From: Candidatus Eiseniibacteriota bacterium
Lineage (GTDB): Bacteria > Eisenbacteria > RBG-16-71-46 > CAZAMP01
Direction of reading: 5' to 3'
Assembly: GCA_965224245.1 (NCBI GenBank)
Contig: OZ245046.1
Coordinates: 4,864,001-4,928,000, forward strand
DNA length: 64,000 bases
Part shown: positions 37,209 through 52,810 of the stretch, one piece after another
Position numbering within the stretch: position 1 is the stretch's first letter
Layout of the letters: each line of letters opens with the position of its first letter
Notes under the pieces: generated by a model
Databases searched by the model: none
Told to the model about the DNA's origin: nothing
Seen by the model: only the letters and a program-made list of their open reading frames with translations
Program-made: the position numbers and the translations under genes

Positions 37209-37228
37209 GAGGTTGCTCTCCGTTCGGA

Positions 37229-38167
37229 TCACGGTACGCGACGAACGAGTGTTGCCGACCATGACGTATCGGTGGGGAACGTGGCTGTGACCCACAGCTC
37301 CTCATCGTCACCGAAGTCTGTCTTGAACCGCCACGGCCGCGTCCCCTCCAGAAACCGCATCTCGCCCGAGGGCAGCGCGAGCAGCCAGAGCTGCCAGGGT
37401 CCGTTCTGTGGGAGTGCCAGATGCACCGAGGACGTCAGTCCGGACGGACGGCGCAGCTCGATCCTCTGCTCGCGACCGGGCCAGGACACATACTCGTCTC
37501 GAACCGGAACGAAGCGTCCGCCTCGGCTCACGATACCGTCGATGAACGCCCGGCTCGCCGCCGCCCTCGGATCGGATGGGGTCGCGTCGGGCGACCCGGA
37601 ACCGCGCATGGCGCCCGCGTCGAACTGCGAGCCGAACATCCGCTCAGCGGTGTTCCAATCGGATACCGGTCGCCACTGAAACGCCGGGGGAATCAAGACC
37701 AGCAGCGCCGTGGCGGAAGCCAGTGCGATCACGACCGCACCGGGCCGCCACCACGCCTTCAATCTCGACTGCCAACGCTCAGCGGGTCCGGACGACGACT
37801 CCGACACGGACGCGGCCACGAGCGTGGGCGGGGTTCCCCTCCTGGACGGCGACGCCGCCATCGCGGCTGCGAGGAGGGACTCGTCCTCACCGATGGACAT
37901 CACGTCCGGCGGCACGATGATCGAAGCGCGCAGCCGACTGTGAGCAGGGTCACTCGACTGCTCAATGGCGGCCATGAGGTCGAGCATGTCTCGCCGGAAC
38001 ACGACCGATTGGGCCAACGCTCGTTCCACCTGAGCTCGTTCGACGTCGGACGCCGTTCCGTTGACGTAGGCCACGATCGCCGGAACGTCGGGCGGCGAGA
38101 CGTTCTCGTCTTCGAGGTGCCTCACGAGTTCGTCCAGGAGCTGGTCGATCGCGTCATCGTCACGCAC
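37229..38167 (-). CDS. Putative membrane-anchored anti-sigma factor
   Basis: Overlaps the end of the sigma gene; ASD-like IVAYVNG..ERAQVERAL; one TM (AVVIALASATALLVLI); extracytoplasmic beta domain. Confidence 0.7.
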   Translation of the reverse strand: MRDDDAIDQLLDELVRHLEDENVSPPDVPAIVAYVNGTASDVERAQVERALAQSVVFRRDMLDLMAAIEQSSDPAHSRLRASIIVPPDVMSIGEDESLLAAAMAASPSRRGTPPTLVAASVSESSSGPAERWQSRLKAWWRPGAVVIALASATALLVLIPPAFQWRPVSDWNTAERMFGSQFDAGAMRGSGSPDATPSDPRAAASRAFIDGIVSRGGRFVPVRDEYVSWPGREQRIELRRPSGLTSSVHLALPQNGPWQLWLLALPSGEMRFLEGTRPWRFKTDFGDDEELWVTATFPTDTSWSATLVRRVP

Positions 38168-38786
38168 GGTGCGGCCGCCTCCCGATCGTGGAAAGCTCCG
38201 CCGCGAGGTCGATGCCGAGCTTCTCGAGTTCCTGCCTCAGCTTCTGGCGGCATTGGCGAACGACATTGCCCGCGTCGTGATTGCTCAACCCCAGCAGTGC
38301 GGAGAAGTCTCGGTTGTTCCATCCCTCGCCACGGGCTCGCAGGACGAACTGGCAGCGCGGATCGAGCTGGCGGATTGCCTCGGTGGTCAGCTCCAGCAGA
38401 CGCCGCCAGCCCACGCCGGCATCGACGGATGGGTCGGAGGATGCCGTTTGCTCGTAGTCGGCTTCCTCCGGCTCGGGTCGTTGTGCACGCAGCACGTCGA
38501 TGGCGCATCGACGGGCGACCACGAGGAACCACGTCCGGAACCGGTACCCACGAGGCTCGTATGCAAGTAATCGGCGACAGCTCTGGGCGACCATGGAGTC
38601 CAGCACCTCGACCACGAGATCGTGGCGCCGCTCGCCGGCGTTCGCGAACACCGGAAGGCTCGTGCACATGAGCTCCCGGTACGCCTCCTCGAGGAACATG
38701 TGTCGCCCCCGCACAGGATCCTCGCGCAACATCGCGATGCAGTCGGGCAGCGTCTGGTCGAAGCCGCCGGACCCGGTGTCGTCCAC
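38160..38786 (-). CDS. ECF RNA polymerase sigma factor
   Basis: DLVVEVL..RRLLAY..FRTWFLVVARRCAIDVLR; region 4 IRQLDPRCQFVL..CRQKLR. Confidence 0.8.
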   Translation of the reverse strand: MDDTGSGGFDQTLPDCIAMLREDPVRGRHMFLEEAYRELMCTSLPVFANAGERRHDLVVEVLDSMVAQSCRRLLAYEPRGYRFRTWFLVVARRCAIDVLRAQRPEPEEADYEQTASSDPSVDAGVGWRRLLELTTEAIRQLDPRCQFVLRARGEGWNNRDFSALLGLSNHDAGNVVRQCRQKLRQELEKLGIDLAAELSTIGRRPHRA

Positions 38787-38999: not shown

Positions 39000-40676
39000 T
39001 TACGGCGTCACCTCCCGCGACATCGTGCTCTCCTGGTCGACGGGGACGGCGTCGGTGACCGGGGCGGCGTCGATTGCCGGCTGGATGCCACCCGCCCGGG
39101 CAATGCTCGCCTCGAGCCTGCGCGCCTCGTCGTCGTCGAGGATGCGCACTTCCGCCACCGGTTCCCCCGATCCTCCCCGCGCCGAGGTCCAGCGCACACA
39201 GACATAGACCGATCGCGCCACTGTCGTGTCGTTGGGGTGCGAGATGGACGCGCTATCGTAGAGCTTCACCTGCGCACAGTACTCGCCGGTCCGGTCGGTG
39301 AAGCAGCTGTAGCTGATCCACGCCCAGAAGTCGAAGGTCGTGCGGTCACTGGCCGGACACGAGTCGTCGAAGATGCTGCCGATGTAGCCCCAGCGATTCA
39401 AGGAACACGGCGTCCGGACGTAGTAGTACGATCCTCCGCTCGGACGAAACCACCACACAGCTTGCGCCTTGCACTGATTCCGATAGCCCCACATGTCGAG
39501 CTTGCCGCGAACGTAGAGGCGCTGGTTCGGATTGTCCGGCTCGGCGCGCACGTTGTAGAAGCGGGCCTTCTTGCGGAAACCGGTGTCGGACGCACTCCGC
39601 GAGCTCTGGTCGCAAGACCATTCCGCGCGCACGCTGTACGAGTAGGTCCGAGACGTGGACGAGCTGCGATCGTCGTAGGACGTCCCGGTCGTCGTGGCCA
39701 GGCGCGAGCCGTCGCGATAGATTGCGTAGCGCGCCGGCCGGGGCGACACCGAGCTCCAGGTGACGCGCACGTACGACGAGTACGTCCCGTTGCTGGCTCG
39801 CACGTTGGTCGGTGTCGGAGGCGAGTACGAGATGTCCGCCGAGCGCACCTGGATCGTCTTCGTCTGGTACCGGTCGACCGTCACGGTCTTGGACCTCGAC
39901 ATCAATCCACAGCCGGGATCTCGAACCGTCCACCGGTGAGTGCCCGGAGTCACCTCGATACGCGGGTTTCCGGACAGCCGCCCGATCGAACGATCGTCGA
40001 CGAACACGTCGTACGTTCCACTTCCGGAGAAGGACAGCTGCGTCGGCGGGCACACCACCCAGTCGATCGAGAGCCCTCCGGCGCCGACCCGCACGGTGTC
40101 GGTCGCCGCCAACCCGATCGTTCGCGTGAAGCTCTGGCTGACGCAACCGTCGTCGTTTCGGAAGCGAAAGCGCTGCTCTCCGACGTCGACGATCTCGCAG
40201 CGGCTCGAGCCCACGGAGATGCTACCGACCCAGTGGCCGTTCAGCTCGAGCTCCAGGTCCTCGGAGAGCCCGCTGAGCGTGAAGCAGAGCCGGGAGTCCG
40301 GACATGACGCCCAGTCGGGCGGCGAGTCCGCGTCGAACTCGACGGTCACCGTCTTCCCCGACTCCGCCACGACCGACTGCGACTTCGATACGCACTGGGT
40401 CCGGGCATTGACGACGTGAACGTCGTGAGGTCCCGGCTCGACGTCGACATCCAAATCCGACTCGTGATCGATGACGCCGACGCGCACCGTATCGACGTAC
40501 ACGCCGAGCGGGTCCGCGTAGTCGCCGAGAGCGAACGACAGCATCGCAGGCTCGGTCGGCGGCGGGGGGTCGGTCACGCCAGTCGTGTCATCCGGCCCGC
40601 AGCCGGCGAGCACCGCCACCGCCAGCGCCGCGCAAGCGAACCACGAGGCGCGCATGCCGAAGTATCGCAGGAACAT
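39000..40676 (-). CDS. Cys-rich multidomain lipoprotein (PEGA-like repeats plus FN3-like domain)
   Basis: Lipobox LAGC; repeats V.PG.H.V; PPTPTNVRAS..VRVTW..YAIYRDG..YSYSVRA. RBS AAAGGAGG. Confidence 0.75.
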   Translation of the reverse strand: MFLRYFGMRASWFACAALAVAVLAGCGPDDTTGVTDPPPPTEPAMLSFALGDYADPLGVYVDTVRVGVIDHESDLDVDVEPGPHDVHVVNARTQCVSKSQSVVAESGKTVTVEFDADSPPDWASCPDSRLCFTLSGLSEDLELELNGHWVGSISVGSSRCEIVDVGEQRFRFRNDDGCVSQSFTRTIGLAATDTVRVGAGGLSIDWVVCPPTQLSFSGSGTYDVFVDDRSIGRLSGNPRIEVTPGTHRWTVRDPGCGLMSRSKTVTVDRYQTKTIQVRSADISYSPPTPTNVRASNGTYSSYVRVTWSSVSPRPARYAIYRDGSRLATTTGTSYDDRSSSTSRTYSYSVRAEWSCDQSSRSASDTGFRKKARFYNVRAEPDNPNQRLYVRGKLDMWGYRNQCKAQAVWWFRPSGGSYYYVRTPCSLNRWGYIGSIFDDSCPASDRTTFDFWAWISYSCFTDRTGEYCAQVKLYDSASISHPNDTTVARSVYVCVRWTSARGGSGEPVAEVRILDDDEARRLEASIARAGGIQPAIDAAPVTDAVPVDQESTMSREVTP

Positions 40677-40710
40677 CTCGATCCTCCTTTGTCAGTGTCG
40701 TCTCGTCGAC

Positions 40711-41403
40711 TCACGGCGTCAGGCTCGTACCGATCCGAATCCCCATCCACCAGGCGTCCATGGGCACACCGCGGTGCTCGACCTCGCCCGAGTAGCGCAA
40801 CGTCTGCTCGTGACCGGAGATGGCGACCCGACTCACCTGCAGCTCGAGCACGCCGGGATGCAACCGCCAGCCGCAGGCCAGCGTCGTGAGAAGCCCCGGT
40901 TCGATGGATGACGTTGCGGATGCCACGTCGGGGTGCCCGTCGAAGCGCAGGCGGTTCGACACCCAGCCGATTCCGAGCCCCAGCTCGACGTAGATCGTTC
41001 CGCCCACGGGTCGCGGCATCGTCGACCGGACCACGGCGCCGATCCCGGTCACCGTCCACCGCCCGGTGACCTCGATGTCGTCCACGGTCCCGGCATCCAG
41101 GCCCAATCGCTCGTGGGTCACGAACGGGCCGATCTCGTAGTGCGCCGTGCGATCCAGGGACCACGTCGCACAGGCCTCCAGCGACAGTCCGGTGCTCGCT
41201 CCGGCGCCGGGACGTTCCGAGAAGCTGCCCGTCGGCATCGCGAATCCCACGAGGCCGTCCACGCGCGCTCCTCCGGCGAAGGAGGGCATCGCCACCAGCA
41301 GGCAAGCCAGGGCGGCCAGCGCACATCCTCGCGTGACGCACGTGAGCGTTCGTCGGCCACCCGTCTCACCTCGCCACCCAGCTCGCGATCGGACATTCGA
41401 CAT
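40711..41403 (-). CDS. Putative small outer-membrane beta-barrel protein
   Basis: Signal peptide ending AMPSFA; alternating amphipathic strands (IYVELGLGIGW, WWMGIRIG). RBS GGGAGG. Confidence 0.55.
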   Translation of the reverse strand: MSNVRSRAGWRGETGGRRTLTCVTRGCALAALACLLVAMPSFAGGARVDGLVGFAMPTGSFSERPGAGASTGLSLEACATWSLDRTAHYEIGPFVTHERLGLDAGTVDDIEVTGRWTVTGIGAVVRSTMPRPVGGTIYVELGLGIGWVSNRLRFDGHPDVASATSSIEPGLLTTLACGWRLHPGVLELQVSRVAISGHEQTLRYSGEVEHRGVPMDAWWMGIRIGTSLTP

Positions 41404-41456
41404 GGCGTCCTCCCTTCACGATCGAGACCCCTCGGTCCGCTCCATCCGCGTCGAAG

Positions 41457-41489
41457 TTTGAACGGCTGGATCGCCGGCTTTTCGGAACG
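41457..41489 (-). promoter_or_regulatory. Block-specific ECF-type promoter motif, leftward copy
   Basis: Minus strand CGTTCCGAAAAG-N13-CGTT-CAAA, upstream of the OMP/lipoprotein genes. Confidence 0.7.
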
Positions 41490-41497
41490 GGCTTTTC

Positions 41498-41535
41498 GTG
41501 TCCGAAAAGCACGGCCCCGCCACGTTGAGATGATG
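41498..41535 (+). promoter_or_regulatory. Block-specific ECF-type promoter motif, upstream of the tssK-like gene
   Basis: GTGTCCGAAAAG-N13-CGTT-GAGA-TGATG. Confidence 0.7.
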
Positions 41536-41566
41536 CAGACGACGGGACGCACACGGGGGACGCGAC

Positions 41567-42787
41567 ATGCAATCAGAACTGGTACGGAACCCGATCCCGC
41601 ACCTGAGGCTCACGCGTGAGTTCCTGCTCGACCAGATCAGCTACGCCGAGTGGCACGGTCGGGTGGGCTCCCGACCCGGGCTACTGCCACCGGTGGGTGC
41701 CGAGCCGAGCTTGCAGCTCGACATGGAGCCCGCCGACGTCATGTGGCTCCGGAGACTCACGGCCATCGGCGAGCTCGGACAGCCCCTCCTGGTCGGTGAC
41801 GGGGGTCGGGACGTGTCGCCACTGGACACGACCCGTCTCGGCGTGGGGCGGCATCGTGTGTTCGCCGCACTCGAGCGAACCAGGGAGCCGTGTGGTGACG
41901 TCGTGGAGTGTCTGCCGGCCGATGGCGCCCGACGTGCGGTGTCCGGACATGCTCACTTGAAGCCCAGGGTGTCGCTGGTCGTCGGCGACGATCGTTTCCA
42001 GCACCGCGACTGGCTGGAGATCGCACACGTGGAACGAGCACGTGATCGCGGCGCGATGCGAACCTTCCTCGACGGCTCGTTTCACCCGGCGATTCGGGAC
42101 ATGTCGGCGTACACGAAGCCCAACCCGCTGGTGACGCTGGCCCGACTCGGACTGGACGCGTGCGGTGACATCGAGAGCGAGATCGCGAGGGTCGTACTCC
42201 GGTCCGAGCTCGTCGTGCTTCAGAACGTGGCGACCCACGGATGCCCGCAGCTTGCCGTGATCCAAGCACAGCGGTGTCTGGCGTTGCTGAGCGAGCTCGG
42301 CGGCGCTGCGGTTCCGGTACATGCCGGTGCGGAGCGTGTGCGATACGCGCCCGACACCGTGTGTCGATTCCTCTCCACGGTCGCCGGAGATCTCGCCGAT
42401 GGCGGCGATGGCCCGGTCTATCCCGACATCATCCGGGTGGACGAGACGAGCTACCAGCGTCTCGATGGTGAGCTCGAGGAGGACGGTCGCTACTGGACGT
42501 GGCAGGCTCGCCGACCCGGTGGGCTCTGGGCCAACGGCCTGGTGATCTACCTCCCGCGCTCGTCACCCGACGCGCTACCCATCGTGCAGTTCGGTCAGCA
42601 CAAGGCCGAGCCGCACTCGTTCAGGCGGGCCAGAACCTCCCACGCCAACGGTCGACCAGGGGCCACGCTTCGGCTGGATCCGATCACGGAGAGGTTGGGC
42701 GCGATCTACCTCGTGACTGACGCGGCTCAACACGAGCTCGAGCTGCGCGCTCAGCTCGGGGACGGACATGCGATCTACTACTTTTGA
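41567..42787 (+). CDS. tssK: Divergent T6SS subtype-iii baseplate protein TssK-like
   Basis: GLLP...LRRLTAI..LG; R.P.G...P.VSL...LEIA...D.SF.P pattern recalls Bacteroidota TssK; first gene of the operon. Confidence 0.5.
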   Translation: MQSELVRNPIPHLRLTREFLLDQISYAEWHGRVGSRPGLLPPVGAEPSLQLDMEPADVMWLRRLTAIGELGQPLLVGDGGRDVSPLDTTRLGVGRHRVFAALERTREPCGDVVECLPADGARRAVSGHAHLKPRVSLVVGDDRFQHRDWLEIAHVERARDRGAMRTFLDGSFHPAIRDMSAYTKPNPLVTLARLGLDACGDIESEIARVVLRSELVVLQNVATHGCPQLAVIQAQRCLALLSELGGAAVPVHAGAERVRYAPDTVCRFLSTVAGDLADGGDGPVYPDIIRVDETSYQRLDGELEEDGRYWTWQARRPGGLWANGLVIYLPRSSPDALPIVQFGQHKAEPHSFRRARTSHANGRPGATLRLDPITERLGAIYLVTDAAQHELELRAQLGDGHAIYYF

Positions 42788-43736
42788 CGACGCGGCGATG
42801 CCGCGCGGGACACCGCTCGGCATGGTCGACCCCACGCTGGCCGCCGGCACGGCGGAGGGACTTCGCGTGCTCAACGAGCTACTCCTTCGAGTAGCACGGC
42901 CGCGCACGTACACCGCCGAGCGGTCGGCACTCGAGGCCATCAGGGCCATCCGTGATGATCGAGTGAGCATCGCCGCGGACACCGACGCCGCCTTCGACGA
43001 GCTTAGGCGCAACGTCCAGTACGTACGCGCCCAGGATGTCGAGGGACTCGCGGAGTGGCTCCAGCTTTCGAGTCGGTCCCTGGTGCCGAGCACCGAGGCC
43101 CGAAAGCGACGCCATGCACTCCTGATCGCCCTTACGGCGAAGGTCGTCGCCACGACGAGCGGATACGACGTCCCGGCCGCGATCGATGGCTCCGCGCTCT
43201 ATCCATGGAGTGAGGGGCTCGCGCCCCTTCTGACCTGGATGCCCACGAGGCCACTGACGCGTACGTACGGCGAGTTGGCCGGCCGCTATCTCGAGGTCAC
43301 GCAGGAGATCGTGTTCGACGTGCACCTGCATCCCATCGACGCGACGACCCCCGAGGAGTTCGACGGATGGCCGTGGTGGAAGCGCCTCGTCCAGCTGCGC
43401 GGCTGGAGAGCTCGCCACCGGCGCGAGGGGCCCGACAACCCGACCCTGGATGCGGGGCGGCTCGAGTTCCGCCTGGCCAGAAACGGGAGCTTCCGTCGGC
43501 TCGAACGTGACGGGGGCCTCGTCGCCCGCCGTTGGCTCACCACGCTCGGGTACCGCGACGTCGTTCGGCGGACCCGCCCGGGGCTTGCCTGGGTCCTCGG
43601 AGCGTTGGTAGCGGTGATCTCGACGACTGCATTGCTGCTCGTCCTTCACCATCGCATGGACACCATTGCGGGACGCGACCGGGCGCTGGCGGACCACGCA
43701 GCTCGGATCGCCCGCGAGCTGGGGAGTGGACGATGA
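42768..43736 (+). CDS. Hypothetical protein with C-terminal TM helix (candidate membrane-complex component)
   Basis: Coupled to its neighbours; TM LAWVLGALVAVISTTALLLVL. YGEL..Y..HPID..WPWW faintly recalls the TssN cytoplasmic domain. Confidence 0.6.
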   Translation: MRSTTFDDAAMPRGTPLGMVDPTLAAGTAEGLRVLNELLLRVARPRTYTAERSALEAIRAIRDDRVSIAADTDAAFDELRRNVQYVRAQDVEGLAEWLQLSSRSLVPSTEARKRRHALLIALTAKVVATTSGYDVPAAIDGSALYPWSEGLAPLLTWMPTRPLTRTYGELAGRYLEVTQEIVFDVHLHPIDATTPEEFDGWPWWKRLVQLRGWRARHRREGPDNPTLDAGRLEFRLARNGSFRRLERDGGLVARRWLTTLGYRDVVRRTRPGLAWVLGALVAVISTTALLLVLHHRMDTIAGRDRALADHAARIARELGSGR

Positions 43737-45826
43737 CGAGGATGACGGCCACCCGCATCTCGAAACGACTGCGGCGTTTGTCGAGCCTCTTCGGGCGGAC
43801 GAAACGTGTGGTGCTGATCGGACGTGACGTGAGGGACGCTCGAGGAGTCCTCGACGCCTGGCTCAACACCTGTGAAGGCGGGGGGGCGCTGCGGACGGTC
43901 ACACCCCCGACGGGAGATTCCGCGCGCGGAGATCGGGTTGCTCACGAGATCGTCGTGCTCTCGACGGAGCGTCCCGGGCGCTCGTGCCGCTGGGGCGTCG
44001 ATGTCCCCGATCTCGCGACGATCGACCGGGACGAGACCTGGCCCACCCAGGCAAACGCCGCCGTGATCTGCTGGCCCCACGCGGCATTGACCGAGCCGGC
44101 GGAGCGCGTGGCCGAGGCGGTGTTTCGGCTCAGCGGTGCCGTCGGCGAAGGAAGAGCGCGGGGCAAACTCCGGCGTGTCGCGTTCGTGATCACCGGCATT
44201 CCGGCGGACATCGGGCCACGACATCCGTCGCAGGCGCGCCTGGATCTTCCACCGAAGCGACGCCTCGACGACGCCATTCGTGTACAGGCCCGCGAGGGCG
44301 CCGGCGTCCCCGGGCATCCACTCGCGGATGATCGCTGGAGCACCTACCTGCGCTCGAGCGTGGCCGGCAACGCGTCGGTCCGGAAGCTGCATGAGAACGT
44401 GCGCCTGGCATGCGGCGGCGCCTGCCCCATCTTCTTCCTGGCCACCGAGCCCAGCGGCACAGCCGTCACGCGTATTCTGCGATGGCTGAACGGCGACCCG
44501 GAGCCGCGCCGCCAGCGGGTGCGCCCGTTGCTGGCCGCTGGCGTCGCCGCCTCGCTGCTGGCCGCTCTGGTCACATTGATCGTGGTCGTACCGCCCGGTA
44601 CCCAGGCGCGCGTCGCGCCGTCGACGACGTCCGTGGAGAAGATGGCCGGGCTGGCGGACGCGCTGGATGAGCGGCTGTCGGCACACGAGCGATGGTCGGT
44701 GCGCACCGCCGCAATGCTGTCGAGATCGGCCCTCGAGACCGAGCCTCTGCGCGCGGCACGGGATGCCATCCGCGATGCCCGAGCCCGCATCGCCGACGTG
44801 GACGCATTCGTATCCTGGCGGTCGCGCCTGTCTCGGACCCGGGCAGCTCTGGTCGACAGCGTCTCGTCGCGCGGGGTGATCGCGCCCTCCACTTCCGACG
44901 CGGCCCGGGTGGCCGCGGAGTCGGCACTCGACTCGCTCCGGAACTGGTCCGATCGGCCCTGGATCACCCGATGGCGCCACGCCGATCTCACGGAGGCCAG
45001 GCAGCAGGCAGGCGAGATCGCGGTGTGGTGGGCGTTGACGTCGCTGGACGTCGACCTCCGCCCCAGTGGGAGGCTCGTGGCCGATCTCGGGCGGCAAGCA
45101 GCGATCTCGTCCGAGCTGACGCGACTCTCGTTCACCGAGGAGGCGCAGTGGATTCACCTCCGGCTCGACACCCCGCTTCACTTTCTCGCGGACTACGCCA
45201 TCCGTCTGCGTGACGACATCAACCCCTACGCGGGCGTCTTCCGCCGCTTCGTGCCGTTCCTGTCCGAGCCGGACGTCCGGTCGGAGGTCGCGGCCCTGAG
45301 GGAGCTTTCGGTGGCGGAGGTCCTCGCCGCGCGAGACCTGCTCCGAGAGCGCGTTGACGAGCTCGTGACGCTGGTCGAGATGTGGGAACGCGTATCCAAC
45401 ACCTCCCGTGCCGACCTGAAGTCGGACCTGAGCACGCTCGCCACCGGACTCGATGAGATCGACGACGCGGTGTACATGGAGATCGCGCTGAACGTGGCAG
45501 GCGATACGCACTGGCACGTCGACTACGCAACATCTTCGAGTGGCCCCTGGCGCGCATCCACTCTGGACGGCGACGGTGGTGCCACGATCGTGGCGGCGAC
45601 TGCCCGGCCTGACGCAACGCTCTACCTCCGGTTCAACTGGCGGTCTCGGACCCACGCCGTCGAAAGCCGCCGGGCAGGCAGCGCATGCACGGGTGGATCG
45701 AGGATTGAGCTCCCGCTCTGGCAAGGTCACGGCGTGATCCAGACGCGCACGAGGAACGTGCACTGGAACGTGCGGGACGGCCGTCCGACGTGGCCGCCCT
45801 CGAAAGTGGATGGAGGTGCGGAATGA
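43733..45826 (+). CDS. Large bitopic membrane protein: degenerate P-loop-like N-domain, one TM, helical plus beta extracytoplasmic region (TssM-like topology)
   Basis: ATGA overlap; KRVVLIG, DVPD, AVICW and RVAFVITG strands without GKS/T; TM LLAAGVAASLLAALVTLIVVV. Confidence 0.6.
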   Translation: MTRMTATRISKRLRRLSSLFGRTKRVVLIGRDVRDARGVLDAWLNTCEGGGALRTVTPPTGDSARGDRVAHEIVVLSTERPGRSCRWGVDVPDLATIDRDETWPTQANAAVICWPHAALTEPAERVAEAVFRLSGAVGEGRARGKLRRVAFVITGIPADIGPRHPSQARLDLPPKRRLDDAIRVQAREGAGVPGHPLADDRWSTYLRSSVAGNASVRKLHENVRLACGGACPIFFLATEPSGTAVTRILRWLNGDPEPRRQRVRPLLAAGVAASLLAALVTLIVVVPPGTQARVAPSTTSVEKMAGLADALDERLSAHERWSVRTAAMLSRSALETEPLRAARDAIRDARARIADVDAFVSWRSRLSRTRAALVDSVSSRGVIAPSTSDAARVAAESALDSLRNWSDRPWITRWRHADLTEARQQAGEIAVWWALTSLDVDLRPSGRLVADLGRQAAISSELTRLSFTEEAQWIHLRLDTPLHFLADYAIRLRDDINPYAGVFRRFVPFLSEPDVRSEVAALRELSVAEVLAARDLLRERVDELVTLVEMWERVSNTSRADLKSDLSTLATGLDEIDDAVYMEIALNVAGDTHWHVDYATSSSGPWRASTLDGDGGATIVAATARPDATLYLRFNWRSRTHAVESRRAGSACTGGSRIELPLWQGHGVIQTRTRNVHWNVRDGRPTWPPSKVDGGAE

Positions 45827-46404
45827 CGCGGACCGCTTCTGGGCTGGGTGCGACGCTAATCCTCCTGACGACGCTCGTCGGTACGGGCGAAGGGGTCGAC
45901 GCGGCGGGCGCGTTCCTCGAGGCCGAGTGTCGGGTCGTCACCGGCGGTGACTCGACCGAGGTCGTCCTCGAGGTCGTGAACGTGCGCAACCTGGCGACCG
46001 GTCCATCGGACTGGACCGCGTCGCTCTCGATCGACTGTTCCGTGGAGGAGTCGCGCCTTCCCTGGCGAACCGAGCTGGGGAGCGGCTGGCGTGCGGTCGC
46101 GGCCTGGACGGTCACCAGTCCGAGCCGAGGCTTCCTCTTTCTCGGGGGCCGGGGCGGACGCGCCACGCTCACGCTGCCATCGGCCGGCTGGTCGATCCGG
46201 TGCCACTGCGCGGGCAAGAGCGACGAACCCCGCGTTCGAGTGTTCGGCGTCCTGATCGGGCCGGACGGCGAACCGGTCCCGTCTCTGAGCTACGTCGGCG
46301 AGCAGGAGTCGTTCTTCGCGCGTCTCCTTCCCTTCGGGTCCGGGCACCCCGCCGAGCTGCCGTCGTCGGTTCGGCTGCGCCTGGCCTGGGAGCCGTTCGA
46401 GTGA
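45823..46404 (+). CDS. Hypothetical exported beta-rich protein
   Basis: ATGA overlap, RBS GGAGG, N-terminal hydrophobic signal. Confidence 0.6.
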   Translation: MTRTASGLGATLILLTTLVGTGEGVDAAGAFLEAECRVVTGGDSTEVVLEVVNVRNLATGPSDWTASLSIDCSVEESRLPWRTELGSGWRAVAAWTVTSPSRGFLFLGGRGGRATLTLPSAGWSIRCHCAGKSDEPRVRVFGVLIGPDGEPVPSLSYVGEQESFFARLLPFGSGHPAELPSSVRLRLAWEPFE

Positions 46405-46489
46405 TCGGCGCGCTCCGTCGGTTGACCGCAAGATGCGTGTCCACATTGCAACGCCGACCCGACACACATCTCGAGGAAGATCCAATCCC

Positions 46490-46527
46490 ATCTCCGAAAT
46501 CGCCGCTCGAGGCCCGTTCATCTGGTG
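46490..46527 (+). promoter_or_regulatory. Block-specific ECF-type promoter motif, upstream of tssB
   Basis: ATCTCCGAAATC-N13-CGTT-CATC-TGGTG. Confidence 0.65.
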
Positions 46528-46562
46528 AGACCACGAGCCTTCGCATGATGAGGAGGATCCCC

Positions 46563-47087
46563 ATGGCGGACGACAAAGGTCTGAAAGCGCACATCGTGTA
46601 CCCCGATCCCGAGAAGGCGCTCTCGGCCCCGGTGTTGCCGGAGGTCGCGATCGCCTTCGACGCTTCTCTTCAGCCCAGGCGCCGATCACTCGCGGCGCTC
46701 AAGGCTGCTCACCCGACCGACCTCACGGCCAACAGCGTCGACGAGGTCTGCTCCGGGCTCGGTCTGGTGATCCGGGGCACGGTCGAAGATGAGACGGGCG
46801 CGAAGAAACAGGTCGTCATCCCGGTCGCGAACGAAAACACGTTCACGCCGGGCGGGCTGACCGCCCGCTGCGAGCCTCTCTTCGACCTGTACACCGCGCA
46901 TCGAACGGCCGATCAAATCGCGACGCTGTCGGAGGAAGTCGAGCTCGACCAGGCGCTCTCAGCGATCGAGACGCTGGATGCATTCGAGCGAGCACTCGCC
47001 GCCGTGGACGCGCCGAGTAACGATGACGTCCCTGACCCGGCGAGCGACGACGAGACCTCGCCCAACGAGCAACCCGGAGGAATGTGA
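46563..47087 (+). CDS. tssB: Contractile sheath small subunit, T6SS subtype-iii TssB-like
   Basis: SVDEV...EDETG...N..FTP..LT...L..L recalls Bacteroidota TssB. RBS GAGGAGG; precedes the sheath large subunit. Confidence 0.7.
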   Translation: MADDKGLKAHIVYPDPEKALSAPVLPEVAIAFDASLQPRRRSLAALKAAHPTDLTANSVDEVCSGLGLVIRGTVEDETGAKKQVVIPVANENTFTPGGLTARCEPLFDLYTAHRTADQIATLSEEVELDQALSAIETLDAFERALAAVDAPSNDDVPDPASDDETSPNEQPGGM

Positions 47088-48442
47088 TGATGAGCGCAGT
47101 GGCCACACGCCTCGACCACGAGATGCTGGAGCGTCTGCGTGGGATTCATGCCGTCATGCCCGGGCTCCAGCCCGATCCAGTCACCGGAGGCGACCTCGAG
47201 TGTCCCGGCATCGACGTCACCGAGAGCGACATCGACCTCCGGGACCTGCTCAACCGTCGCGGAGAAGCGGCACGGCAAAGCAGGCGTCTCCTGCGGGCAC
47301 ACATCCGGGCGTTCATCGCGATCACGCGTCGCGCCGAGGCGAACGGCCAGACCCTGAAACAAGCCGCGTCCGAGCACGCGGACGCATCGGCCCAGGCGCT
47401 GGAACGATCCTGGGTATCGCTCCTCACTGCGAACCGCGAGCTGGAGACCCGGGTGCGAAGCGTGGCGTTGATGTTTGCCAACCTCGCATCATCCCGGGCC
47501 GCGCTCACCGATCGCATCCACTTTCTGGACGTCAGCCACGAGGAGCTGAACACGCCCGCCGGCCAGGACTTCGTCCGCGACTACCTGAGCCACTTCGTGG
47601 ATCGCCCGGATCCCCGGGAGGCCCGCGGATACTTCTGGGCTCCCGGCTGGCTAGGAGATGCCGATGGCGTCAACGCGCTCGGTCGAGTCGTGCACGAGCA
47701 TCGTGCGCTCTTCGTGTCGGACGCGCCGCCGTACGAGTCGGAGGTCGCGCTGAAGAAGGCCGCCAGGCCCGGACGTCTCCTGGACTCGCTGAAGGGAGAG
47801 GACGTTCACCATCGGCACATGATCCTGATCGGCAACCCGACCCGTGCCCGCGGCGCGTTTCGCGGACGCACGGCATCAGAGGCCGACGACGTTCGGGTTC
47901 CGGGCAGCTCGGCCTGGTTCGGCATGCAGCTCGACACGATCGTGCGCGGTACGCCGTGGATTCCGGTCGCCGGCTACCTGAACCCGCTGGCCGGCGTGGA
48001 CGACGTCGCGGTCGATCTCCGGCTGGAAGACGTGGCCGGGTTCCGTCTGTATGCGAGCCATCGCATCAATCCCGTCATCCTGAGGGGCGCCGGCTCGAAC
48101 ATCGCGGTCGTCTGGGGCGCCTACACCCTCGGCGGGCAGCAGGTCGGCGAGGCGGTGGCCGAGCTCGAGGTGGTCCGTTTTGCGGAGTGGGTCATGAACC
48201 AGCACGGACTCCTGGTCGAGCTCGACAAGGGCGCCAGGGAGGTTCGCCGCCAGCTCGCCCACTTCGTCACGTTGAACCGCGGCGCGGGAAAGATGTTCAG
48301 AGCGAAGAGCCGAGTCGACGTGCGGGTCGAGGGAAAGACGATCGTCGTCGACTTCGATCTCCACTACCGAGTGGTCACCGAACACGCGGTCATTCGGATG
48401 AACAAGTCGTCAGACGAGACCGCGCTCGAAATCACGGACTGA
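47087..48442 (+). CDS. tssC: Contractile sheath large subunit, T6SS subtype-iii TssC (DUF5458)-like
   Basis: RELE..RSVAL.F.N, DR.D....G....PGWLG, HE.....V.D, L.G.DV, DD..VP, AG....L..VD.V..DL, VVR; about 450 aa. Confidence 0.8.
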   Translation: MMSAVATRLDHEMLERLRGIHAVMPGLQPDPVTGGDLECPGIDVTESDIDLRDLLNRRGEAARQSRRLLRAHIRAFIAITRRAEANGQTLKQAASEHADASAQALERSWVSLLTANRELETRVRSVALMFANLASSRAALTDRIHFLDVSHEELNTPAGQDFVRDYLSHFVDRPDPREARGYFWAPGWLGDADGVNALGRVVHEHRALFVSDAPPYESEVALKKAARPGRLLDSLKGEDVHHRHMILIGNPTRARGAFRGRTASEADDVRVPGSSAWFGMQLDTIVRGTPWIPVAGYLNPLAGVDDVAVDLRLEDVAGFRLYASHRINPVILRGAGSNIAVVWGAYTLGGQQVGEAVAELEVVRFAEWVMNQHGLLVELDKGAREVRRQLAHFVTLNRGAGKMFRAKSRVDVRVEGKTIVVDFDLHYRVVTEHAVIRMNKSSDETALEITD

Positions 48443-48461
48443 TCGTCGACGGGAGGATGAC

Positions 48462-48896
48462 GTGCCTAACTACAGGATCCGCGCAGAGCTGAAGCCGCGA
48501 AGTGGCGAAGCGATCGAGCTCGACCACATCCTGAGCCTATCGTGGAGGGCCTGGCGTAGCCCGGGCCCCAACAACAACCTCGGGCAGGTGGGGCACCAGG
48601 TCGACGAGATCGTGCTGACCCGGCACAAGTCGCTGCCCAATGGCGAGCAGCCGGCGGAGGACAGGACGGTCGCGGCTGCCGCGGCACGCGAGCAAGACGC
48701 CTTCCACTCCGGCGAGATCACGGTGGCACGCCCGGAGGATCCGACGAACCCGGTACAGACGATCCGCTTCGACGAGGGTCACGTGACGTCGATCCAGCAA
48801 GAGATCAACGGCAGCCGGTTCGTGGAGACGCTCAACATCGCCGTGAAGTCACTCCAGGTCGACGACAACATCTTCGAGCCGGAACCGGCGGAGTGA
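48462..48896 (+). CDS. tssD: Tube protein, TssD/Hcp-like
   Basis: 144 aa beta protein between sheath and spike genes; GEITV.R...QTIRFDEG...ETLNI pattern. Confidence 0.7.
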   Translation: MPNYRIRAELKPRSGEAIELDHILSLSWRAWRSPGPNNNLGQVGHQVDEIVLTRHKSLPNGEQPAEDRTVAAAAAREQDAFHSGEITVARPEDPTNPVQTIRFDEGHVTSIQQEINGSRFVETLNIAVKSLQVDDNIFEPEPAE

Positions 48897-50362
48897 GTGT
48901 CACCGGTGCAGTGGCCCCCGGCGCGGACTGTCGGTTTCGGGTACTCGTGGACGACGATCGGCTCGACGGCATCGGCGACGTGACCATCGTCGAGGATCTC
49001 CGGGGCGGGGTGGATGCCAGGTTCGATCTGTGGCTCGACCCGGCGACTCGCATCCGGCCTGGCCAGCGCGTGACGGTTCGGGTGGAGCGGGTGGGCAGGA
49101 TCAACCACGACACCGAGATCCACACGTGGTGCCGTACCACGTCGACCTTTCGGGTCTCGGGCGAGCGGGCAACGTGCCGTACGCACGCCACCGATCCCCT
49201 CCGCGTGCATCCGCCGCAGCCGGAGTTCCGGAGTCATGCCGGCGGTGTCGGGTTGCTGCAGCTCGCGCGCGCGGTGGCGCGTCTGCCGAAAGGCGTGCGC
49301 GCGTCCGCCCAAGACGTACCGGTGCGCGCGGCCTGGCTTCTGCAAGCCGACGAATCCGCGGTCGAGTTCATGCACCGGGTAGCGGCCGCGATCGACCACG
49401 TCGTGTTCTGGAGTCGAGACGAGCTGACCGCGGCGATGATCGGTGACGACCGCGAGGACCACGAGCTCGGCGACTTCGGCGAGGACGACGTTCTGCGAGC
49501 GACCTACGTGGAGTCGGTGGGCCTGCATGGGACCAACACGACGTGGATCCATCCGGAGACGCGATCGGTGCAGCAACGTCGTCAGGACCCGCACCGCTCG
49601 GGCGGTACGATCGCAACGCGTCGAAGCGCGTGGCGCGCCGGCGGCGCGGTCATGCCGGCACCGGCCGATGGTCTGTGGATGGCGACGACATTGTCGACAC
49701 ATCGGCCGGACGTCCGCCTCGGGTCGCGGCTCGAGATGGAGAACGGTCCCTGGATTGTCCACCGCGTCGAGCATCACCTCACGGCTCGCGGCACCTACGA
49801 GAACGTGATCCACGCCGTGCGCGCGGTGGACTGGGGACGTCCCGCGTACGCGCTGACGCCGTTGGTGATCGGCCCGCTGCACGCGACGGTGGTCGACAAC
49901 GAGGATCCGGCTGCTCTGGGACGGATCCGTGTCGTCCTGCTCGAGGATCCTGACCGGCGTCCGACACCGTGGGTGCCTTACGGATTTGCCTACGCGGGTC
50001 CAGCACATGGGATTCACTACGTTCCCGAGAAGGGCGACCTGGTCCTCGTGGATGCCGAGCCCGGCTCGCCCGAGCGTCTCTACGCTCGAGGCAGCATCCG
50101 AAGCGCTCGGTCGCCGGTGCCCGACGATTGGCAGGTCCGTGGTAACGCGATCAAGACCTGGGTGACCCGGGGCGGCAGCGGTGTCGTCATCGACGACGGG
50201 AGCCGCACCCTCCGGGCGACCGCGGGCGCCATGCTGAGTGTGAACGCCGACGACCTGGTCGCCGAAGCGACGACTCTCCGACTCCACGCTGCCGGGAGTC
50301 TGGCGCTCGACGGTGACGAGCACGTCGCGATTCGGTCTCGCCGTCGCATCGATCTGGGGTGA
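48893..50362 (+). CDS. vgrG: VgrG/TssI spike protein (gp27-like hub, gp5 OB-fold, short beta-helix)
   Basis: Q.DES..EF..R; ATVVDNEDP..LGRIRV; TPW; YAG..HG...VPE.GD.VLV; N.IKT..TRGG..V.IDD; terminal IDL. Confidence 0.85.
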   Translation: MSVTGAVAPGADCRFRVLVDDDRLDGIGDVTIVEDLRGGVDARFDLWLDPATRIRPGQRVTVRVERVGRINHDTEIHTWCRTTSTFRVSGERATCRTHATDPLRVHPPQPEFRSHAGGVGLLQLARAVARLPKGVRASAQDVPVRAAWLLQADESAVEFMHRVAAAIDHVVFWSRDELTAAMIGDDREDHELGDFGEDDVLRATYVESVGLHGTNTTWIHPETRSVQQRRQDPHRSGGTIATRRSAWRAGGAVMPAPADGLWMATTLSTHRPDVRLGSRLEMENGPWIVHRVEHHLTARGTYENVIHAVRAVDWGRPAYALTPLVIGPLHATVVDNEDPAALGRIRVVLLEDPDRRPTPWVPYGFAYAGPAHGIHYVPEKGDLVLVDAEPGSPERLYARGSIRSARSPVPDDWQVRGNAIKTWVTRGGSGVVIDDGSRTLRATAGAMLSVNADDLVAEATTLRLHAAGSLALDGDEHVAIRSRRRIDLG

Positions 50363-51936
50363 ACATGTTCGAGCTGGAGGCATTGACTCGCACCATGCTG
50401 GATGCGATCGACGATGTCGGCGCCGCCCTCGTGGAACGGACGCGCACCGCGTGCGCGAACGCGCTGCTGGCGGTGTCGGATCCAGGGCTTGCACTACCGT
50501 CTCCACCGGTCGCGCTGATGGAGTTCGACACGGACGAGACGGCAACCCTCGACCGACGGGCCTTGCTGCGGTCAGAGCTGGCACTCAAGGCGTCAGGCGA
50601 GATCCTGGTGACTCCGGTGTGCGGGGACATCGTGGTTCATCCGTGGCGCATCGAGAGCGCCGAGTGGATCATGGACGACCCACGCGACACCGGTGAGGAC
50701 GATCCCAGGGTGGCGAGGGGCGTCGTGTGTCGGCTTCGGAGATCCCCGGCGTCGACTTGCACGCCGGGTCCCCTGACCGTGCACGTGGGAGTGGACCCGG
50801 CGGTGGTTGGAAGCCTCAGACGGAGCATCGCGACGGCGCGCGCGATCGACGACTCGGACACCCAGCGACTGCTCGTCGTGGACCGAAAGCCGGAGACGTA
50901 TCTTGCCACACGGGTCCCCGTCGGTCCCACGACGACCGATCAGCAGGTCGCGGCACAGGAGGAGACGCTCGTCAGCGTGTATGTGACGCGCGAACTCTGC
51001 GAGCGCGAGTCATGGACGCTCGAGCTCCGCTTCGCGCGGCGAGCACTGGCCGTGTCGTCGACGCCGTCCGTGACGGCAAACGTGCACTCGGTCTGGAACT
51101 CCCTGTGGACGCGGTATCCAGAGCGCGCGTCGGTGCAGCAGACCGTGTCCGAGAACCGGAATCGCTGGGTACATGCGCTCGGGTCCCGAGACGTGGGATC
51201 GAGCTGGCGTGCGTGGAGCGTCGTTCGCGTCGGGACCTCACGGCGCCTCCATTCCGCCACGTCCTGGTTCGCGTCGACGGGCCGTTCGCCGGCGACCGAC
51301 ACACCGGCGCTCCTGCTGGCGTACGTCGGTGAACAGACGTCGCATCCCGAGCGACAAGTGCGCGCGACGTCTCCTACCCCCGTTCTGTCGATCGTGGTCG
51401 ACGCGACCACGCGGCGACACCTGGACGATGCCCGCACGAAACTGACGGCGGAGTACTGGATCACGACGGGTGCCGACGGCAATGGCGTTCCGGCTGGCAC
51501 CGCATTTCACGTCGACTCACCCCTGTCGGCTCGTCTTCAGGGACGGCTCGTCACGTCGATGTGGGGTGGCACCGACGGCGCGATGGGCCATGTGGTCGAC
51601 TTCTCGGGAGACGAGCAGCCATCGGTGTTCGTGGCTCCACGTGGCTTGCTCACGGTGACTGACGCGATGAACATCATCGCGCGTGCCTCGGGAGGGATGC
51701 TGGACGTGGTCGATCCGCGGGACTTCCTTCGCTGGGGGGCAGCGTCGCCGATCGAGCCGCTCGTCGTGCGCGTGCGGTTCCGCGACCGCGTCCCCGGCCA
51801 TCAGGGCGGAATCGTGCTGGCAGCGTGTCGCGGCGCACTCGAGCAGCGGATGGGCAGCGCGGTCGCGGCCGGACTCGTGCTCACTTGCGACGAGATGCGA
51901 GATGGGGTCGCAATGGATGTTTCCGATGACGCGTAG
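50359..51936 (+). CDS. tssF: Divergent baseplate wedge protein TssF-like
   Basis: FELE.L...P..ALM, TP, YW.T.G..GNG..AG, GG.D, LLT..D motifs; position after vgrG with GTGA overlap. Confidence 0.55.
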   Translation: MNMFELEALTRTMLDAIDDVGAALVERTRTACANALLAVSDPGLALPSPPVALMEFDTDETATLDRRALLRSELALKASGEILVTPVCGDIVVHPWRIESAEWIMDDPRDTGEDDPRVARGVVCRLRRSPASTCTPGPLTVHVGVDPAVVGSLRRSIATARAIDDSDTQRLLVVDRKPETYLATRVPVGPTTTDQQVAAQEETLVSVYVTRELCERESWTLELRFARRALAVSSTPSVTANVHSVWNSLWTRYPERASVQQTVSENRNRWVHALGSRDVGSSWRAWSVVRVGTSRRLHSATSWFASTGRSPATDTPALLLAYVGEQTSHPERQVRATSPTPVLSIVVDATTRRHLDDARTKLTAEYWITTGADGNGVPAGTAFHVDSPLSARLQGRLVTSMWGGTDGAMGHVVDFSGDEQPSVFVAPRGLLTVTDAMNIIARASGGMLDVVDPRDFLRWGAASPIEPLVVRVRFRDRVPGHQGGIVLAACRGALEQRMGSAVAAGLVLTCDEMRDGVAMDVSDDA

Positions 51937-52468
51937 CATGCTGCACGATGCCGACACCCCTCGTCGAGAGCTGGGCATCGACGTCGGTCGACAGATCACG
52001 GAACGGATCGGGGAGCGCCTCGGCGCCGACGAAGGAGCCCGTGACGACGTCCCGGGGCGGGTGTCGAAGCAGCTCGGTGACGCGCTCGCGCTCCTCGCCT
52101 CGCCTCCGGTTCGACAGCGTCTCGACGAGCTGGAAACGCTGCTGGCCGTCGTGCTCACGACACCGTGGCACGTCGCCGCGATCGAGATCGCCAAGCCTCT
52201 GCCGCACGTGATCACCCGCTTCACGCGATCGGCGCACCGCGGAGCGCGCATCTCGGTGGGGAGAGGACGGCGCGCGAGCCGAATCGGAGAATGTCGGGTC
52301 GCCGAAACGCCGATCACCGTGCACCTGCCACAGGTGAGTGAGGTCGGGCCGGATCAGCCGCGGGACTGGGTGCTCCGGGCGCCAGTCGGCACGGTCGTGC
52401 GGCCAGCCGAGGAGGCGCCGTTGGATGTCCGGGTCGGCGTCAGTTGCATCGAGGAGGATGCATCATGA
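51917..52468 (+). CDS. Short hypothetical protein, possibly a reduced TssG-like wedge subunit
   Basis: Follows tssF and is coupled to the PAAR gene (ATGA); LE.LL..VL..P motif. Start uncertain (51917, 51926 or 51938). Confidence 0.45.
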   Translation: MFPMTRSMLHDADTPRRELGIDVGRQITERIGERLGADEGARDDVPGRVSKQLGDALALLASPPVRQRLDELETLLAVVLTTPWHVAAIEIAKPLPHVITRFTRSAHRGARISVGRGRRASRIGECRVAETPITVHLPQVSEVGPDQPRDWVLRAPVGTVVRPAEEAPLDVRVGVSCIEEDAS

Positions 52469-52791
52469 GAGGTATCGCCCGCCGGGGCGATCGCATCGAA
52501 GGGGGTGTTCACTGCCACGGTGGCCACTCGCACCCTCCGCCGGCGAGCCCGGGCCGGATCGTCGGGGGCGCGCGCAAGGTGTTCGTCAACGGTCGCCCGG
52601 CGGCTCGCGCCGGAGACAGTGGGTACTCGCCGCTCTGCTGCGCCGGCATCGGCCGCATCTCGATCCGAGAGGACCAGATGCTCGTGTGGATCGAGGGAAA
52701 GCCGGCGGCTGGCGTCGGAACACCCACCATGCACTGCGACGTCGCCCCGGGACGCATTGCCACCGGAAGCACCGAGGTCCGCATGCCGTAG
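52465..52791 (+). CDS. PAAR-repeat spike tip protein
   Basis: IARRGD, VFVNGRPAARAGD, IEGKPAAGVG, GRIATGS.EV; His/Cys metal ligands. Confidence 0.92.
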   Translation: MRGIARRGDRIEGGVHCHGGHSHPPPASPGRIVGGARKVFVNGRPAARAGDSGYSPLCCAGIGRISIREDQMLVWIEGKPAAGVGTPTMHCDVAPGRIATGSTEVRMP

Positions 52792-52810
52792 CGCGGCGTC
52801 CGGCTACACG

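What the first reader, a model, noticed from the sequence alone, without database searches (positions are those of the whole stretch)
42768..46404. Three unknown coupled genes occupy the membrane-complex position: possible novel T6SS anchor
Seen between tssK-like and tssB: a 322-aa protein with a C-terminal TM (TssL-like topology), a 697-aa bitopic protein with a dead P-loop-like N-domain and large extracytoplasmic part (TssM-like topology), and a small exported beta protein (TssJ-like size, but no lipobox). I cannot recognise TssO/P/Q/R or TssJ/L/M by sequence. Inference: either a third kind of membrane complex, or an L/M/J-like anchor joined to a subtype-iii tail.
Basis: inference. Interest (0 to 1): 0.72.

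Follow-up and report, generated by a model that had tools for sequence, protein, structure and literature searches.

The report
Third type VI secretion membrane anchor
These three genes are likely a fast-evolved copy of a gene set that sits behind the baseplate gene of a Bacteroidota-style secretion needle in about half of the Zixibacteria genomes sampled, and that is predicted to fasten the needle to the cell envelope without either of the two known anchors.

Summary
Observation confirmed: three coupled, intact ORFs lie between a tssK-like gene and the sheath genes, with no Pfam/NCBIfam match. Related loci carry the same block: tssK, a ~310-aa tail-anchored helical protein, a ~740-aa bitopic DO-GTPase2-like GTPase, often a GAP1-like gene, and an exported TrbI/VirB10-like protein. 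The tail-anchored gene is found in 128 of 130 sampled Zixibacteria with subtype-iii TssC; only 2 of those have TssL, none TssN. Window gene 1 belongs to that family (best of 29,688 genome ORFs, E 9e-7). Genes 2 and 3 are assigned by position, topology and motif remnants only; gene 2's P-loop is dead here but invariant in relatives. The families match neither TssJ/L nor TssN/O/P/Q/R; only the GTPase domain weakly resembles TssM's N-domain. A model docks the family's TssK head on the tail-anchored protein (0.66 versus control 0.01; unstable across runs). Best reading: a third T6SS membrane anchor (0.6). The window copy lacks tssE, clpV and GAP1 and may be a relic. Not found in my literature searches; this scan found the same system before on other DNA (three notes).

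The parts
41567..42787 (+). tssK-like baseplate connector, 406 aa, strongly diverged
   Evidence: hhalign to the related K family score 31.2 vs <=22.2 for 8 shuffles, E 0.002; that family matches TssK-i (P 99.3) and TssK-iii (P 99.9) over its first ~350 residues; its C-terminal head aligns colinearly but not significantly (E 0.12)
42768..43736 (+). g1: 322-aa tail-anchored helical protein (TM 275-293) of an unnamed family; predicted TssK-docking adaptor (works like TssL or TssN-cyto)
   Evidence: best of 29,688 genome ORFs with the family HMM, E 8.8e-7, next 0.3; hhalign P 89.8, score 49 vs <=18.3 for 8 shuffles; keeps D73, D140, R216, E233, four of the family's most conserved residues
43733..45826 (+). 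g2: 697-aa bitopic protein (TM 268-286); likely pseudo-GTPase domain in the cytoplasm, helical stalk and small beta domain outside; positional counterpart of the DO-GTPase2-like family
   Evidence: position and topology; same order of secondary structure as the family model (the g2 model itself is poor, pLDDT 37); G4/G5 and last-helix remnants align; ordered-motif score beats 200 of 200 shuffles, but 29 of 400 real segments do as well; not detected by family HMM or hhalign
45823..46404 (+). g3: 193-aa likely exported protein without lipobox; positional counterpart of the TrbI/VirB10-like family, homology not shown
   Evidence: position and size match; ordered-motif score reached by 6 of 200 shuffles and 24 of 400 real segments; no hhalign or HMM match
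46563..47087 (+). tssB-like small sheath subunit (by position only)
   Evidence: directly before tssC; not detected by Pfam or the family HMM
47084..48442 (+). tssC, subtype-iii type
   Evidence: PF17541 E 4.3e-11, over cut-off; family HMM E 6.8e-25; end branch 5.62 in the quick tree
48462..48896 (+). hcp (tssD)
   Evidence: PF17642 E 0.0078; family HMM E 0.021
48893..50362 (+). vgrG, short (489 aa)
   Evidence: PF04717 E 7e-13, TIGR01646 E 1e-8
50359..51936 (+). tssF-like
   Evidence: family HMM E 0.0019, best in the genome
51926..52468 (+). short tssG-like ORF (180 aa, against ~300-330 aa in relatives), by position only
   Evidence: no Pfam match, not detected by the family HMM
52465..52791 (+). 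PAAR
   Evidence: PF05488 E 1.3e-16

Best explanation
The three genes are likely a fast-evolved copy of a third kind of T6SS membrane anchor, conserved behind tssK in Zixibacteria and in the window's own phylum, in which a tail-anchored helical protein is predicted to catch the head of TssK, a single-pass GTPase-domain protein would span the inner membrane and periplasm, and an exported TrbI/VirB10-like protein would form the outer ring. Shown: the conserved gene block, its tie to subtype-iii tails, the near absence of TssL and absence of TssN in those genomes, g1's membership, and the small-GTPase fold and invariant G1/G3/G4 motifs of the family's large protein. Predicted: the TssK-head/g1-family contact. 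Inferred: that g2 and g3 are the counterparts of the large and small proteins, that the set oligomerises into a channel, and that GTP (with the GAP1-like partner where present) gates assembly or docking. In this window the P-loop is lost, so g2 would act as a nucleotide-free scaffold.
For: Same order K, tail-anchored, GTPase-TM, (GAP1), small exported in loci of both phyla. In 251 Zixibacteria-phylum genomes: subtype-iii TssC 130; g1 family 119, all within the 130; 9 more found in the 10 loci fetched from the remaining 11 genomes, giving 128 of 130 against 0 of 121 TssC-negative genomes. TssL over cut-off in 22 of 251, only 2 among the 130; TssN over cut-off in 0 of 251 (control 3 of 3). Own phylum: g1 family in 13 of 206, 11 of these without a TssL match. 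The K family matches TssK-i and TssK-iii only up to residue ~340-350 and has its own ~130-aa head; the head is the part that binds the membrane complex in subtype i (PMC6300606, passages). Complex of Zixibacteria proteins: score 0.66, best of 3 controls 0.01 (mark reached by 116 of 157 solved and 2 of 215 mismatched pairs; partner pLDDT >=77; run agreement at least 0%); confident contacts are all K head 408-426/443-460 with g1-family 81-110/144-150, including near-invariant D109, kept as D140 in g1. Large-protein model pLDDT 86.8: GTPase, one TM, ~250-aa helical part, ~100-aa beta domain; best matches are Ras/Rag/Arf-type GTPases, Z 16.0, rmsd 3.0, 177 aligned; DO-GTPase2 in 35 of 35 members. 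The small family aligns over 132 columns (P 98) to a domain with a TrbI match at E 1.6e-5; the nearest named Atlas cluster is also TrbI (0.77, a lead only).
Against: g2 and g3 are not detectably homologous to the families by HMM or hhalign; window tssB and tssG are missed too, so this is expected but leaves the assignment unproven. The complex failed in 1 of 3 runs (0.00), and the control that kept the K head and g1 family but replaced the GTPase scored 0.01, which an independent K-g1 interface should have survived; it was run on G309 proteins, not the window's. The block is not fixed: of 20 Zixibacteria loci the GTPase gene was adjacent in 17 and the small gene in 13, so the outer ring cannot be obligatory in this form. 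The TrbI match is under Pfam's cut-off (25.3 vs 35 bits) and indirect. The window locus lacks tssE, clpV and a GAP1-like gene and has a short tssG. No lipoprotein is conserved in the block. No expression or function data. Genomes are related, so the counts are not independent.
Confidence: 0.6

Rival explanations
1. The block is a very diverged TssL/TssM pair, with the small exported protein replacing TssJ.
For: Gene order K-L-M and topology mirror tssK-tssL-tssM, as in this genome's own subtype-i locus. The large family matches PF14331 IcmF-related_N weakly in 18 of 35 members (best E 4e-4) and aligns to TssM's NTPase domain (196 columns, P 31, E 5e-4). Its outer part is helical then beta, as in TssM (recalled).
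Against: g1 family vs 37 TssL sequences P 0.4, and no alignment of the periplasmic parts, while K vs K gives P 99.3. DO-GTPase2 scores better than IcmF-related_N (35 vs 18 of 35 members). Lengths differ: ~255 vs ~190 aa cytoplasmic, ~370 vs ~670 aa periplasmic. The small family is TrbI-like, has no lipobox and gives P 0.6 against a 4-sequence TssJ profile.
Confidence: 0.18
2. The family is an anchor elsewhere, but this window's copy is a decaying relic that no longer builds a machine.
For: Every gene is on a very long branch (TssC end branch 5.62 vs median 0.12); P-loop lost; tssE, clpV and GAP1 absent, tssG short; no close relative found; the genome has a complete subtype-i T6SS at C1:1.549-1.577 Mb.
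Against: All 11 ORFs are open over 11 kb with stop/start overlaps kept and GC3 0.78-0.87; g1 keeps the family's most conserved residues. Extreme divergence with no stop or frameshift is more typical of selection than of decay (inference).
Confidence: 0.14
3. The block is not the anchor but a membrane-bound GTPase switch borrowed from DO-GTPase/GAP1 conflict systems that regulates firing; the tail is held by something else or acts unanchored.
For: DO-GTPase2 followed by a GAP1-N2/GAP1-M-like gene (E 5e-5 to 0.06, around or under cut-off; 23 such sequences collected) is the core pair described as a regulatory switch in PMC7159879 (passages). Three of 20 loci lack the adjacent GTPase.
Against: These are the only conserved membrane proteins in the operons; both known anchors are missing in 128 of 130 carriers; relatives' operons carry a ClpV-like gene, which implies a recycled, cell-bound sheath; the predicted partner of the TssK head is the g1 family.
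Confidence: 0.08

Closest known systems
T6SS subtype iii of Bacteroidota with the TssNQOPR membrane complex (PMC10781749)
   Same: TssC PF17541, Hcp PF17642 and TssK type (P 99.9 over residues 7-350); the anchor connector is encoded next to tssK.
   Different: No TssN, O, P, Q or R match by profile; extra ~130-aa TssK head; host outside Bacteroidota, to which the paper restricts the subtype; tail-anchored and GTPase-bearing membrane proteins instead of a 5-TM hub.
T6SS subtype i membrane complex TssJ-TssL-TssM
   Same: Order K-L-M; tail-anchored plus bitopic topology; an N-terminal P-loop domain distantly related to TssM's; predicted docking through the TssK head.
   Different: No detectable TssL homology; periplasmic part about half the size and not alignable; no TssJ lipoprotein; TrbI-like exported protein instead; subtype-iii tail.
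DO-GTPase/GAP1-N2 conflict systems (PMC7159879)
   Same: DO-GTPase2-like domain followed by a GAP1-N2/GAP1-M-like gene; membrane location.
   Different: Single GTPase, no zinc ribbons seen, no FNIII or effector genes seen in the block, GAP1-like protein short (~240-290 aa) and optional; embedded in a T6SS operon, a link not made in the passages read.
VirB10/TrbI C-terminal domain of type IV secretion systems (PF03743)
   Same: Relatives' small exported protein aligns over its mature length to a domain with a TrbI match and has a hydrophobic stretch near the end where the VirB10 antenna lies (antenna recalled, not tested).
   Different: Stand-alone ~175 aa, indirect and sub-threshold Pfam match, no other T4SS genes seen; the window's g3 is not shown to belong.

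Membership tests
T6SS (contractile core) | Sheath TssC, tube Hcp, spike VgrG and PAAR | tested here: met
   PF17541, PF17642 (weak), PF04717, PF05488
T6SS (contractile core) | Baseplate TssE/F/G/K, TssB and ClpV in the locus | tested here: inconclusive
   Window: F E 0.002, K E 0.002, B and G by position only, E and ClpV not in the locus. Relatives have all of them
T6SS subtype iii | Subtype-iii TssC and TssK | tested here: met
   PF17541 over cut-off; K family vs TssK-iii P 99.9; groups with Bacteroidota away from subtype i in a quick tree
T6SS subtype iii | TssN, TssQ, TssO, TssP, TssR membrane complex | tested here: not met
   No TssN in the genome or over cut-off in 251 Zixibacteria-phylum genomes (control 3 of 3); all hhalign P <=1.2 against 2-3-sequence profiles of each (shallow profiles, so weak for O/P/Q/R); no Pfam TssO/P/R match
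T6SS subtype i | TssL/DotU domain (PF09850), by sequence | tested here: not met
   0 of 61 members listed with DotU (25 of 38 families shown); hhalign P 0.4 vs 37 TssL
T6SS subtype i | TssL fold | tested here: inconclusive
T6SS subtype i | TssM N-terminal NTPase domain (PF14331) | tested here: inconclusive
   18 of 35 members match under the cut-off; hhalign P 31
T6SS subtype i | TssM periplasmic domains | tested here: inconclusive
   No sequence match; the fold searches were filled by the GTPase domain, residues 31-331
T6SS subtype i | TssJ outer-membrane lipoprotein with lipobox | tested here: not met
   No lipobox Cys in g3 or in the small family's consensus; P 0.6-1.0 against a 4-sequence TssJ profile
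DO-GTPase/GAP1 system | DO-GTPase profile with intact G motifs | tested here: met
   Family: PF19993 in 35 of 35, over cut-off in 5 of 6; G40, G45, K46, T47, G135, K206, D208 invariant. Not met for the window's g2
DO-GTPase/GAP1 system | Glutamate in Walker B | tested here: inconclusive
   Family consensus is DYxG(E) with near-invariant D132; I could not map which position the paper means
DO-GTPase/GAP1 system | GAP1 gene downstream of the GTPase | tested here: inconclusive
   GAP1-N2/GAP1-M matches around or under cut-off in part of the loci; none in the window's genome
DO-GTPase/GAP1 system | FNIII or GASH component and variable effectors | tested here: inconclusive
   None seen among genes next to the GTPase; most loci were not scanned with Pfam
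VirB10/TrbI | PF03743 over cut-off | tested here: not met
   0 of 28 members match; indirect link through P0063, 25.3 vs 35 bits; none in the window's genome
VirB10/TrbI | Ring formation in the outer membrane | not tested

The most novel reading that the evidence does not exclude
A third, independently built T6SS trans-envelope machine, made from a conflict-system GTPase switch (DO-GTPase plus GAP1) and a VirB10-type outer ring, is the main contractile weapon of Zixibacteria. It is GTP-gated, shares the ancestor of TssM's NTPase domain, and predates the Bacteroidota TssNQOPR complex, which nests among these systems in the quick TssC tree. This window shows the switch can die while the scaffold stays.
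Probability: 0.28. Interest if true: 0.88.

Novelty: new variant of a known kind. Interest (0 to 1): 0.72.

Why it matters
Two non-homologous membrane complexes are described for subtype-i and subtype-iii T6SS, and PMC10781749 leaves open which the common ancestor had and how TssK adapted to each. A third solution on a subtype-iii tail outside Bacteroidota, with its own TssK head, a GTPase related to TssM's N-domain and a TrbI-like exported protein, makes that question testable by phylogeny, pull-down and structure. It also suggests that about half of the sampled Zixibacteria genomes carry a contact weapon that models requiring TssJLM or TssNQOPR would score as incomplete (inference).

Tried and rejected
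Single-sequence AlphaFold of g2: pLDDT 37, not searched. Homologue search with g2: self only. hhalign of g2 and g3 against family profiles: no significant match; the global-mode test was uninformative. PDB sequence searches with the small and large family profiles: 0 hits, and 11 hits with best E 0.066. Foldseek and VIA searches list no TssM chain, but the GTPase filled the lists, so this is no evidence on the periplasmic part. Atlas for the g1 family: nothing usable; g2 and g3 could not be searched there. The complex model gave no confident contact to the GTPase chain (no support; not evidence against binding). Use of the genome's own TssJLM in trans was considered and set aside for the family, since 128 of 130 carriers lack TssL; it is not excluded for this one genome. 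The TssC tree is the quick tree only (careful search unfinished), with two subtype-i rows from one genome as outgroup and long branches meeting, so no order of events is claimed. No RNA holder listed. The script for interface conservation and the K-head shuffle test did not run; searches cover part of it, without shuffles. Literature: searches (listings only, apart from four papers read in part) gave no description of this system. Subscription papers are not covered, and supplements were not read; the neighbourhood lists of PMC7159879 could hold these loci.
Full report
Observation. The three ORFs are as described: g1 42768-43736 (322 aa, TM 275-293), g2 43733-45826 (697 aa, TM 268-286), g3 45823-46404 (193 aa, likely signal peptide, no lipobox), coupled by overlaps between a 406-aa tssK-like gene and tssB-tssC-hcp-vgrG-tssF-tssG-PAAR. 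None matches Pfam or NCBIfam, and g2 finds only itself. TssC and Hcp match the Bacteroidota-type models PF17541 and PF17642. Contigs from one sample, possibly the source, agree letter for letter over 41400-52900.

Finding relatives. The window's TssC found 9 other genomes among 206 of its phylum. Where the fetched stretch reached tssK (6 of the 9), it was followed by a 300-340-aa protein with a C-terminal TM and a 740-800-aa protein with an intact Walker A and a TM near residue 330-370; a ~175-aa exported protein lay next in 5 of these 6. Alignments of these found the same block in records titled Zixiibacteriota and Krumholzibacteriia. The Zixibacteria operon reads clpV-like, tssB, tssC, hcp, vgrG, tssE, tssF, tssG, tssK, tail-anchored gene, GTPase gene, then a GAP1-like gene, the small gene, or both (gene lists printed for 8 of 20 loci).

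Distribution. Of 251 genomes drawn from the phylum of G206, 130 have subtype-iii TssC and 119 the tail-anchored family, all 119 within the 130. I fetched 10 of the other 11 loci; 9 have it and the tenth is a 5.6-kb contig end. So 128 of 130, against 0 of 121 without TssC. TssL passes its cut-off in 22 of 251, and only G321 and G399 are among the 130; TssN passes in none (control 3 of 3). In the window's phylum the family is in 13 of 206, 11 of them without TssL, which 53 of 206 have. Genomes are incomplete and related, so these are patterns, not statistics. Against a fixed block: in 20 Zixibacteria loci, K and the tail-anchored gene were present in 20, the GTPase in 17 and the small gene in 13. 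The tail-anchored family is small: 38 hits among 1.84 billion 50%-identity representatives.

Do the window's genes belong? g1 does: it is the best of 29,688 genome ORFs (E 8.8e-7, next 0.3), hhalign P 89.8, and it keeps the conserved D, D, R and E. g2 and g3 are not detected by HMM or hhalign. The whole locus is that far out: window tssB and tssG are also missed, tssK scores only E 0.002, and TssC has an end branch of 5.62. For g2 the case rests on position, topology, the same order of secondary structure as the family model, aligned remnants of G4, G5 and the last helix, and an ordered-motif score above 200 of 200 shuffles but matched by 29 of 400 real segments. The Walker A is lost on either alignment. 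For g3 the case is position and size, with a weak motif score (reached by 6 of 200 shuffles and 24 of 400 real segments).

What the families are. Large protein: DO-GTPase2 in 35 of 35 members, IcmF-related_N weakly in 18; G1, G3 and G4 residues invariant. AlphaFold (144 rows, pLDDT 86.8) gives a GTPase domain, a long helix holding the TM, about 250 helical residues and a ~100-residue beta domain. The best structural matches are Rag/Arf/Ras-type GTPases (Z 16.0, rmsd 3.0, 177 aligned); the outer part was barely tested. Against 21 TssM sequences only the NTPase domain aligns (P 31). Tail-anchored protein: no family in 61 members, P 0.4 against TssL where K against K gives 99.3; its fold is untested. 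Small protein: no direct Pfam match, but its profile finds P0063 at E 2e-16 and aligns over 132 columns to a domain with a TrbI match at E 1.6e-5, under the cut-off; the Atlas's nearest named cluster is TrbI (0.77, lead). None of the three matches TssN, O, P, Q or R, tested on shallow profiles. The optional extra gene matches GAP1-N2/GAP1-M near or under cut-off; DO-GTPase plus GAP1 is the core pair of the conflict systems in PMC7159879 (passages; those shown make no T6SS link).

Mechanism. TssK binds the membrane complex in both known types: through its head to TssL and TssM (PMC6300606, passages) and to TssN (PMC10781749, first ninth and passages). Here the K family is homologous to both up to residue ~350 and carries its own head. 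A three-chain model of G309 proteins scored 0.66 against a best control of 0.01 (116 of 157 solved and 2 of 215 mismatched pairs reach the mark; partner pLDDT >=77; runs agree in at least 0% of contacts). All confident contacts lie between the K head and the tail-anchored protein, at conserved D109 among others. One run scored 0.00 and the control that replaced only the GTPase scored 0.01, so this is support, not proof. I infer that the tail-anchored protein is the baseplate adaptor, the bitopic GTPase the inner-membrane and periplasmic scaffold with a nucleotide switch, and the TrbI-like protein an outer ring; the last two steps are untested. In the window the switch is dead and GAP1 is gone.

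State of this copy. The locus lacks tssE, clpV and GAP1, has a short tssG and vgrG, and the genome also has a complete subtype-i T6SS with tssJKLM at C1:1549499-1555497. All ORFs are open and coupled. I put a relic at 0.14.

Comparison and novelty. It works like a T6SS with a subtype-iii tail; it fails membership of subtype iii (no TssNQOPR found) and of subtype i (no TssL or TssJ by sequence; fold tests inconclusive). Reviews list four subtypes, with iii confined to Bacteroidota (PMC10433429, passages; PMC10781749). Eight searches found no description; subscription papers and supplements were not seen. The quick TssC tree places Bacteroidota among these systems, away from subtype i, but with long branches and a thin outgroup (49 rows, TssC pieces under 330 aa left out). 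Three earlier notes of this scan describe the same system on other DNA; I reached my reading before seeing them and do not count them as support. Verdict: new variant (an undescribed T6SS subtype with a likely third anchor), interest 0.72.

Noticed in passing
G000:C1:1549499-1577012 (L066): The same genome has a complete subtype-i T6SS with tssJ, K, L, M, preceded by a lipoprotein, beta-barrel-like and kinase gene group.
   Followed up: partly
L014:8885-13319; L019:6252-8132; L020:752-5463; L046:312-4265; L034:12852-19509: Many GTPase-anchored T6SS loci are flanked, often on the other strand, by a TPR/peptidoglycan-binding (CsgG-like) protein, a barrel-like protein, lipoproteins and a Ser/Thr kinase, or by a kinase-FGE fusion: a possible shared envelope-sensing module.
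   Followed up: no
window 52872-53639: 255-aa lipoprotein with a lipobox-like Cys directly after PAAR, no family match; could be an outer-membrane partner or an immunity protein.
   Followed up: no
window 33023-38786: Two ECF-sigma-like genes, an anti-sigma-like zinc-finger membrane protein and a 1,097-aa TPR-CHAT protein upstream of the locus.
   Followed up: no
window 39000-41403: Divergent pair: a 230-aa protein with a weak outer-membrane barrel match and a 558-aa lipoprotein-like beta protein.
   Followed up: no
L012:16684-17544; L014:5078-5899: TssE (gp25) fused to an N-terminal PDZ domain in two relatives.
   Followed up: no
L046:16736-19293; L053; L060; L117: In many Zixibacteria the clpV-like gene before tssB appears as two ORFs (~480 and ~365 aa), while others have one ~813-aa gene.
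   Followed up: no
L055, L056, L057 (G400, G294, G424): Operons with tssK and the tail-anchored gene but no adjacent GTPase or small gene.
   Followed up: no
G000:C1:3780081-3780647 and 6446979-6447680: Two stand-alone exported proteins hit by the small-protein profile (E 6e-5, 6e-4), far from any T6SS gene.
   Followed up: partly
L036 / L023: The same 14,335-base contig is titled Saccharimonadales in the public record but lies in a genome of the window's phylum (G074) at 72% GC; the title looks wrong.
   Followed up: no
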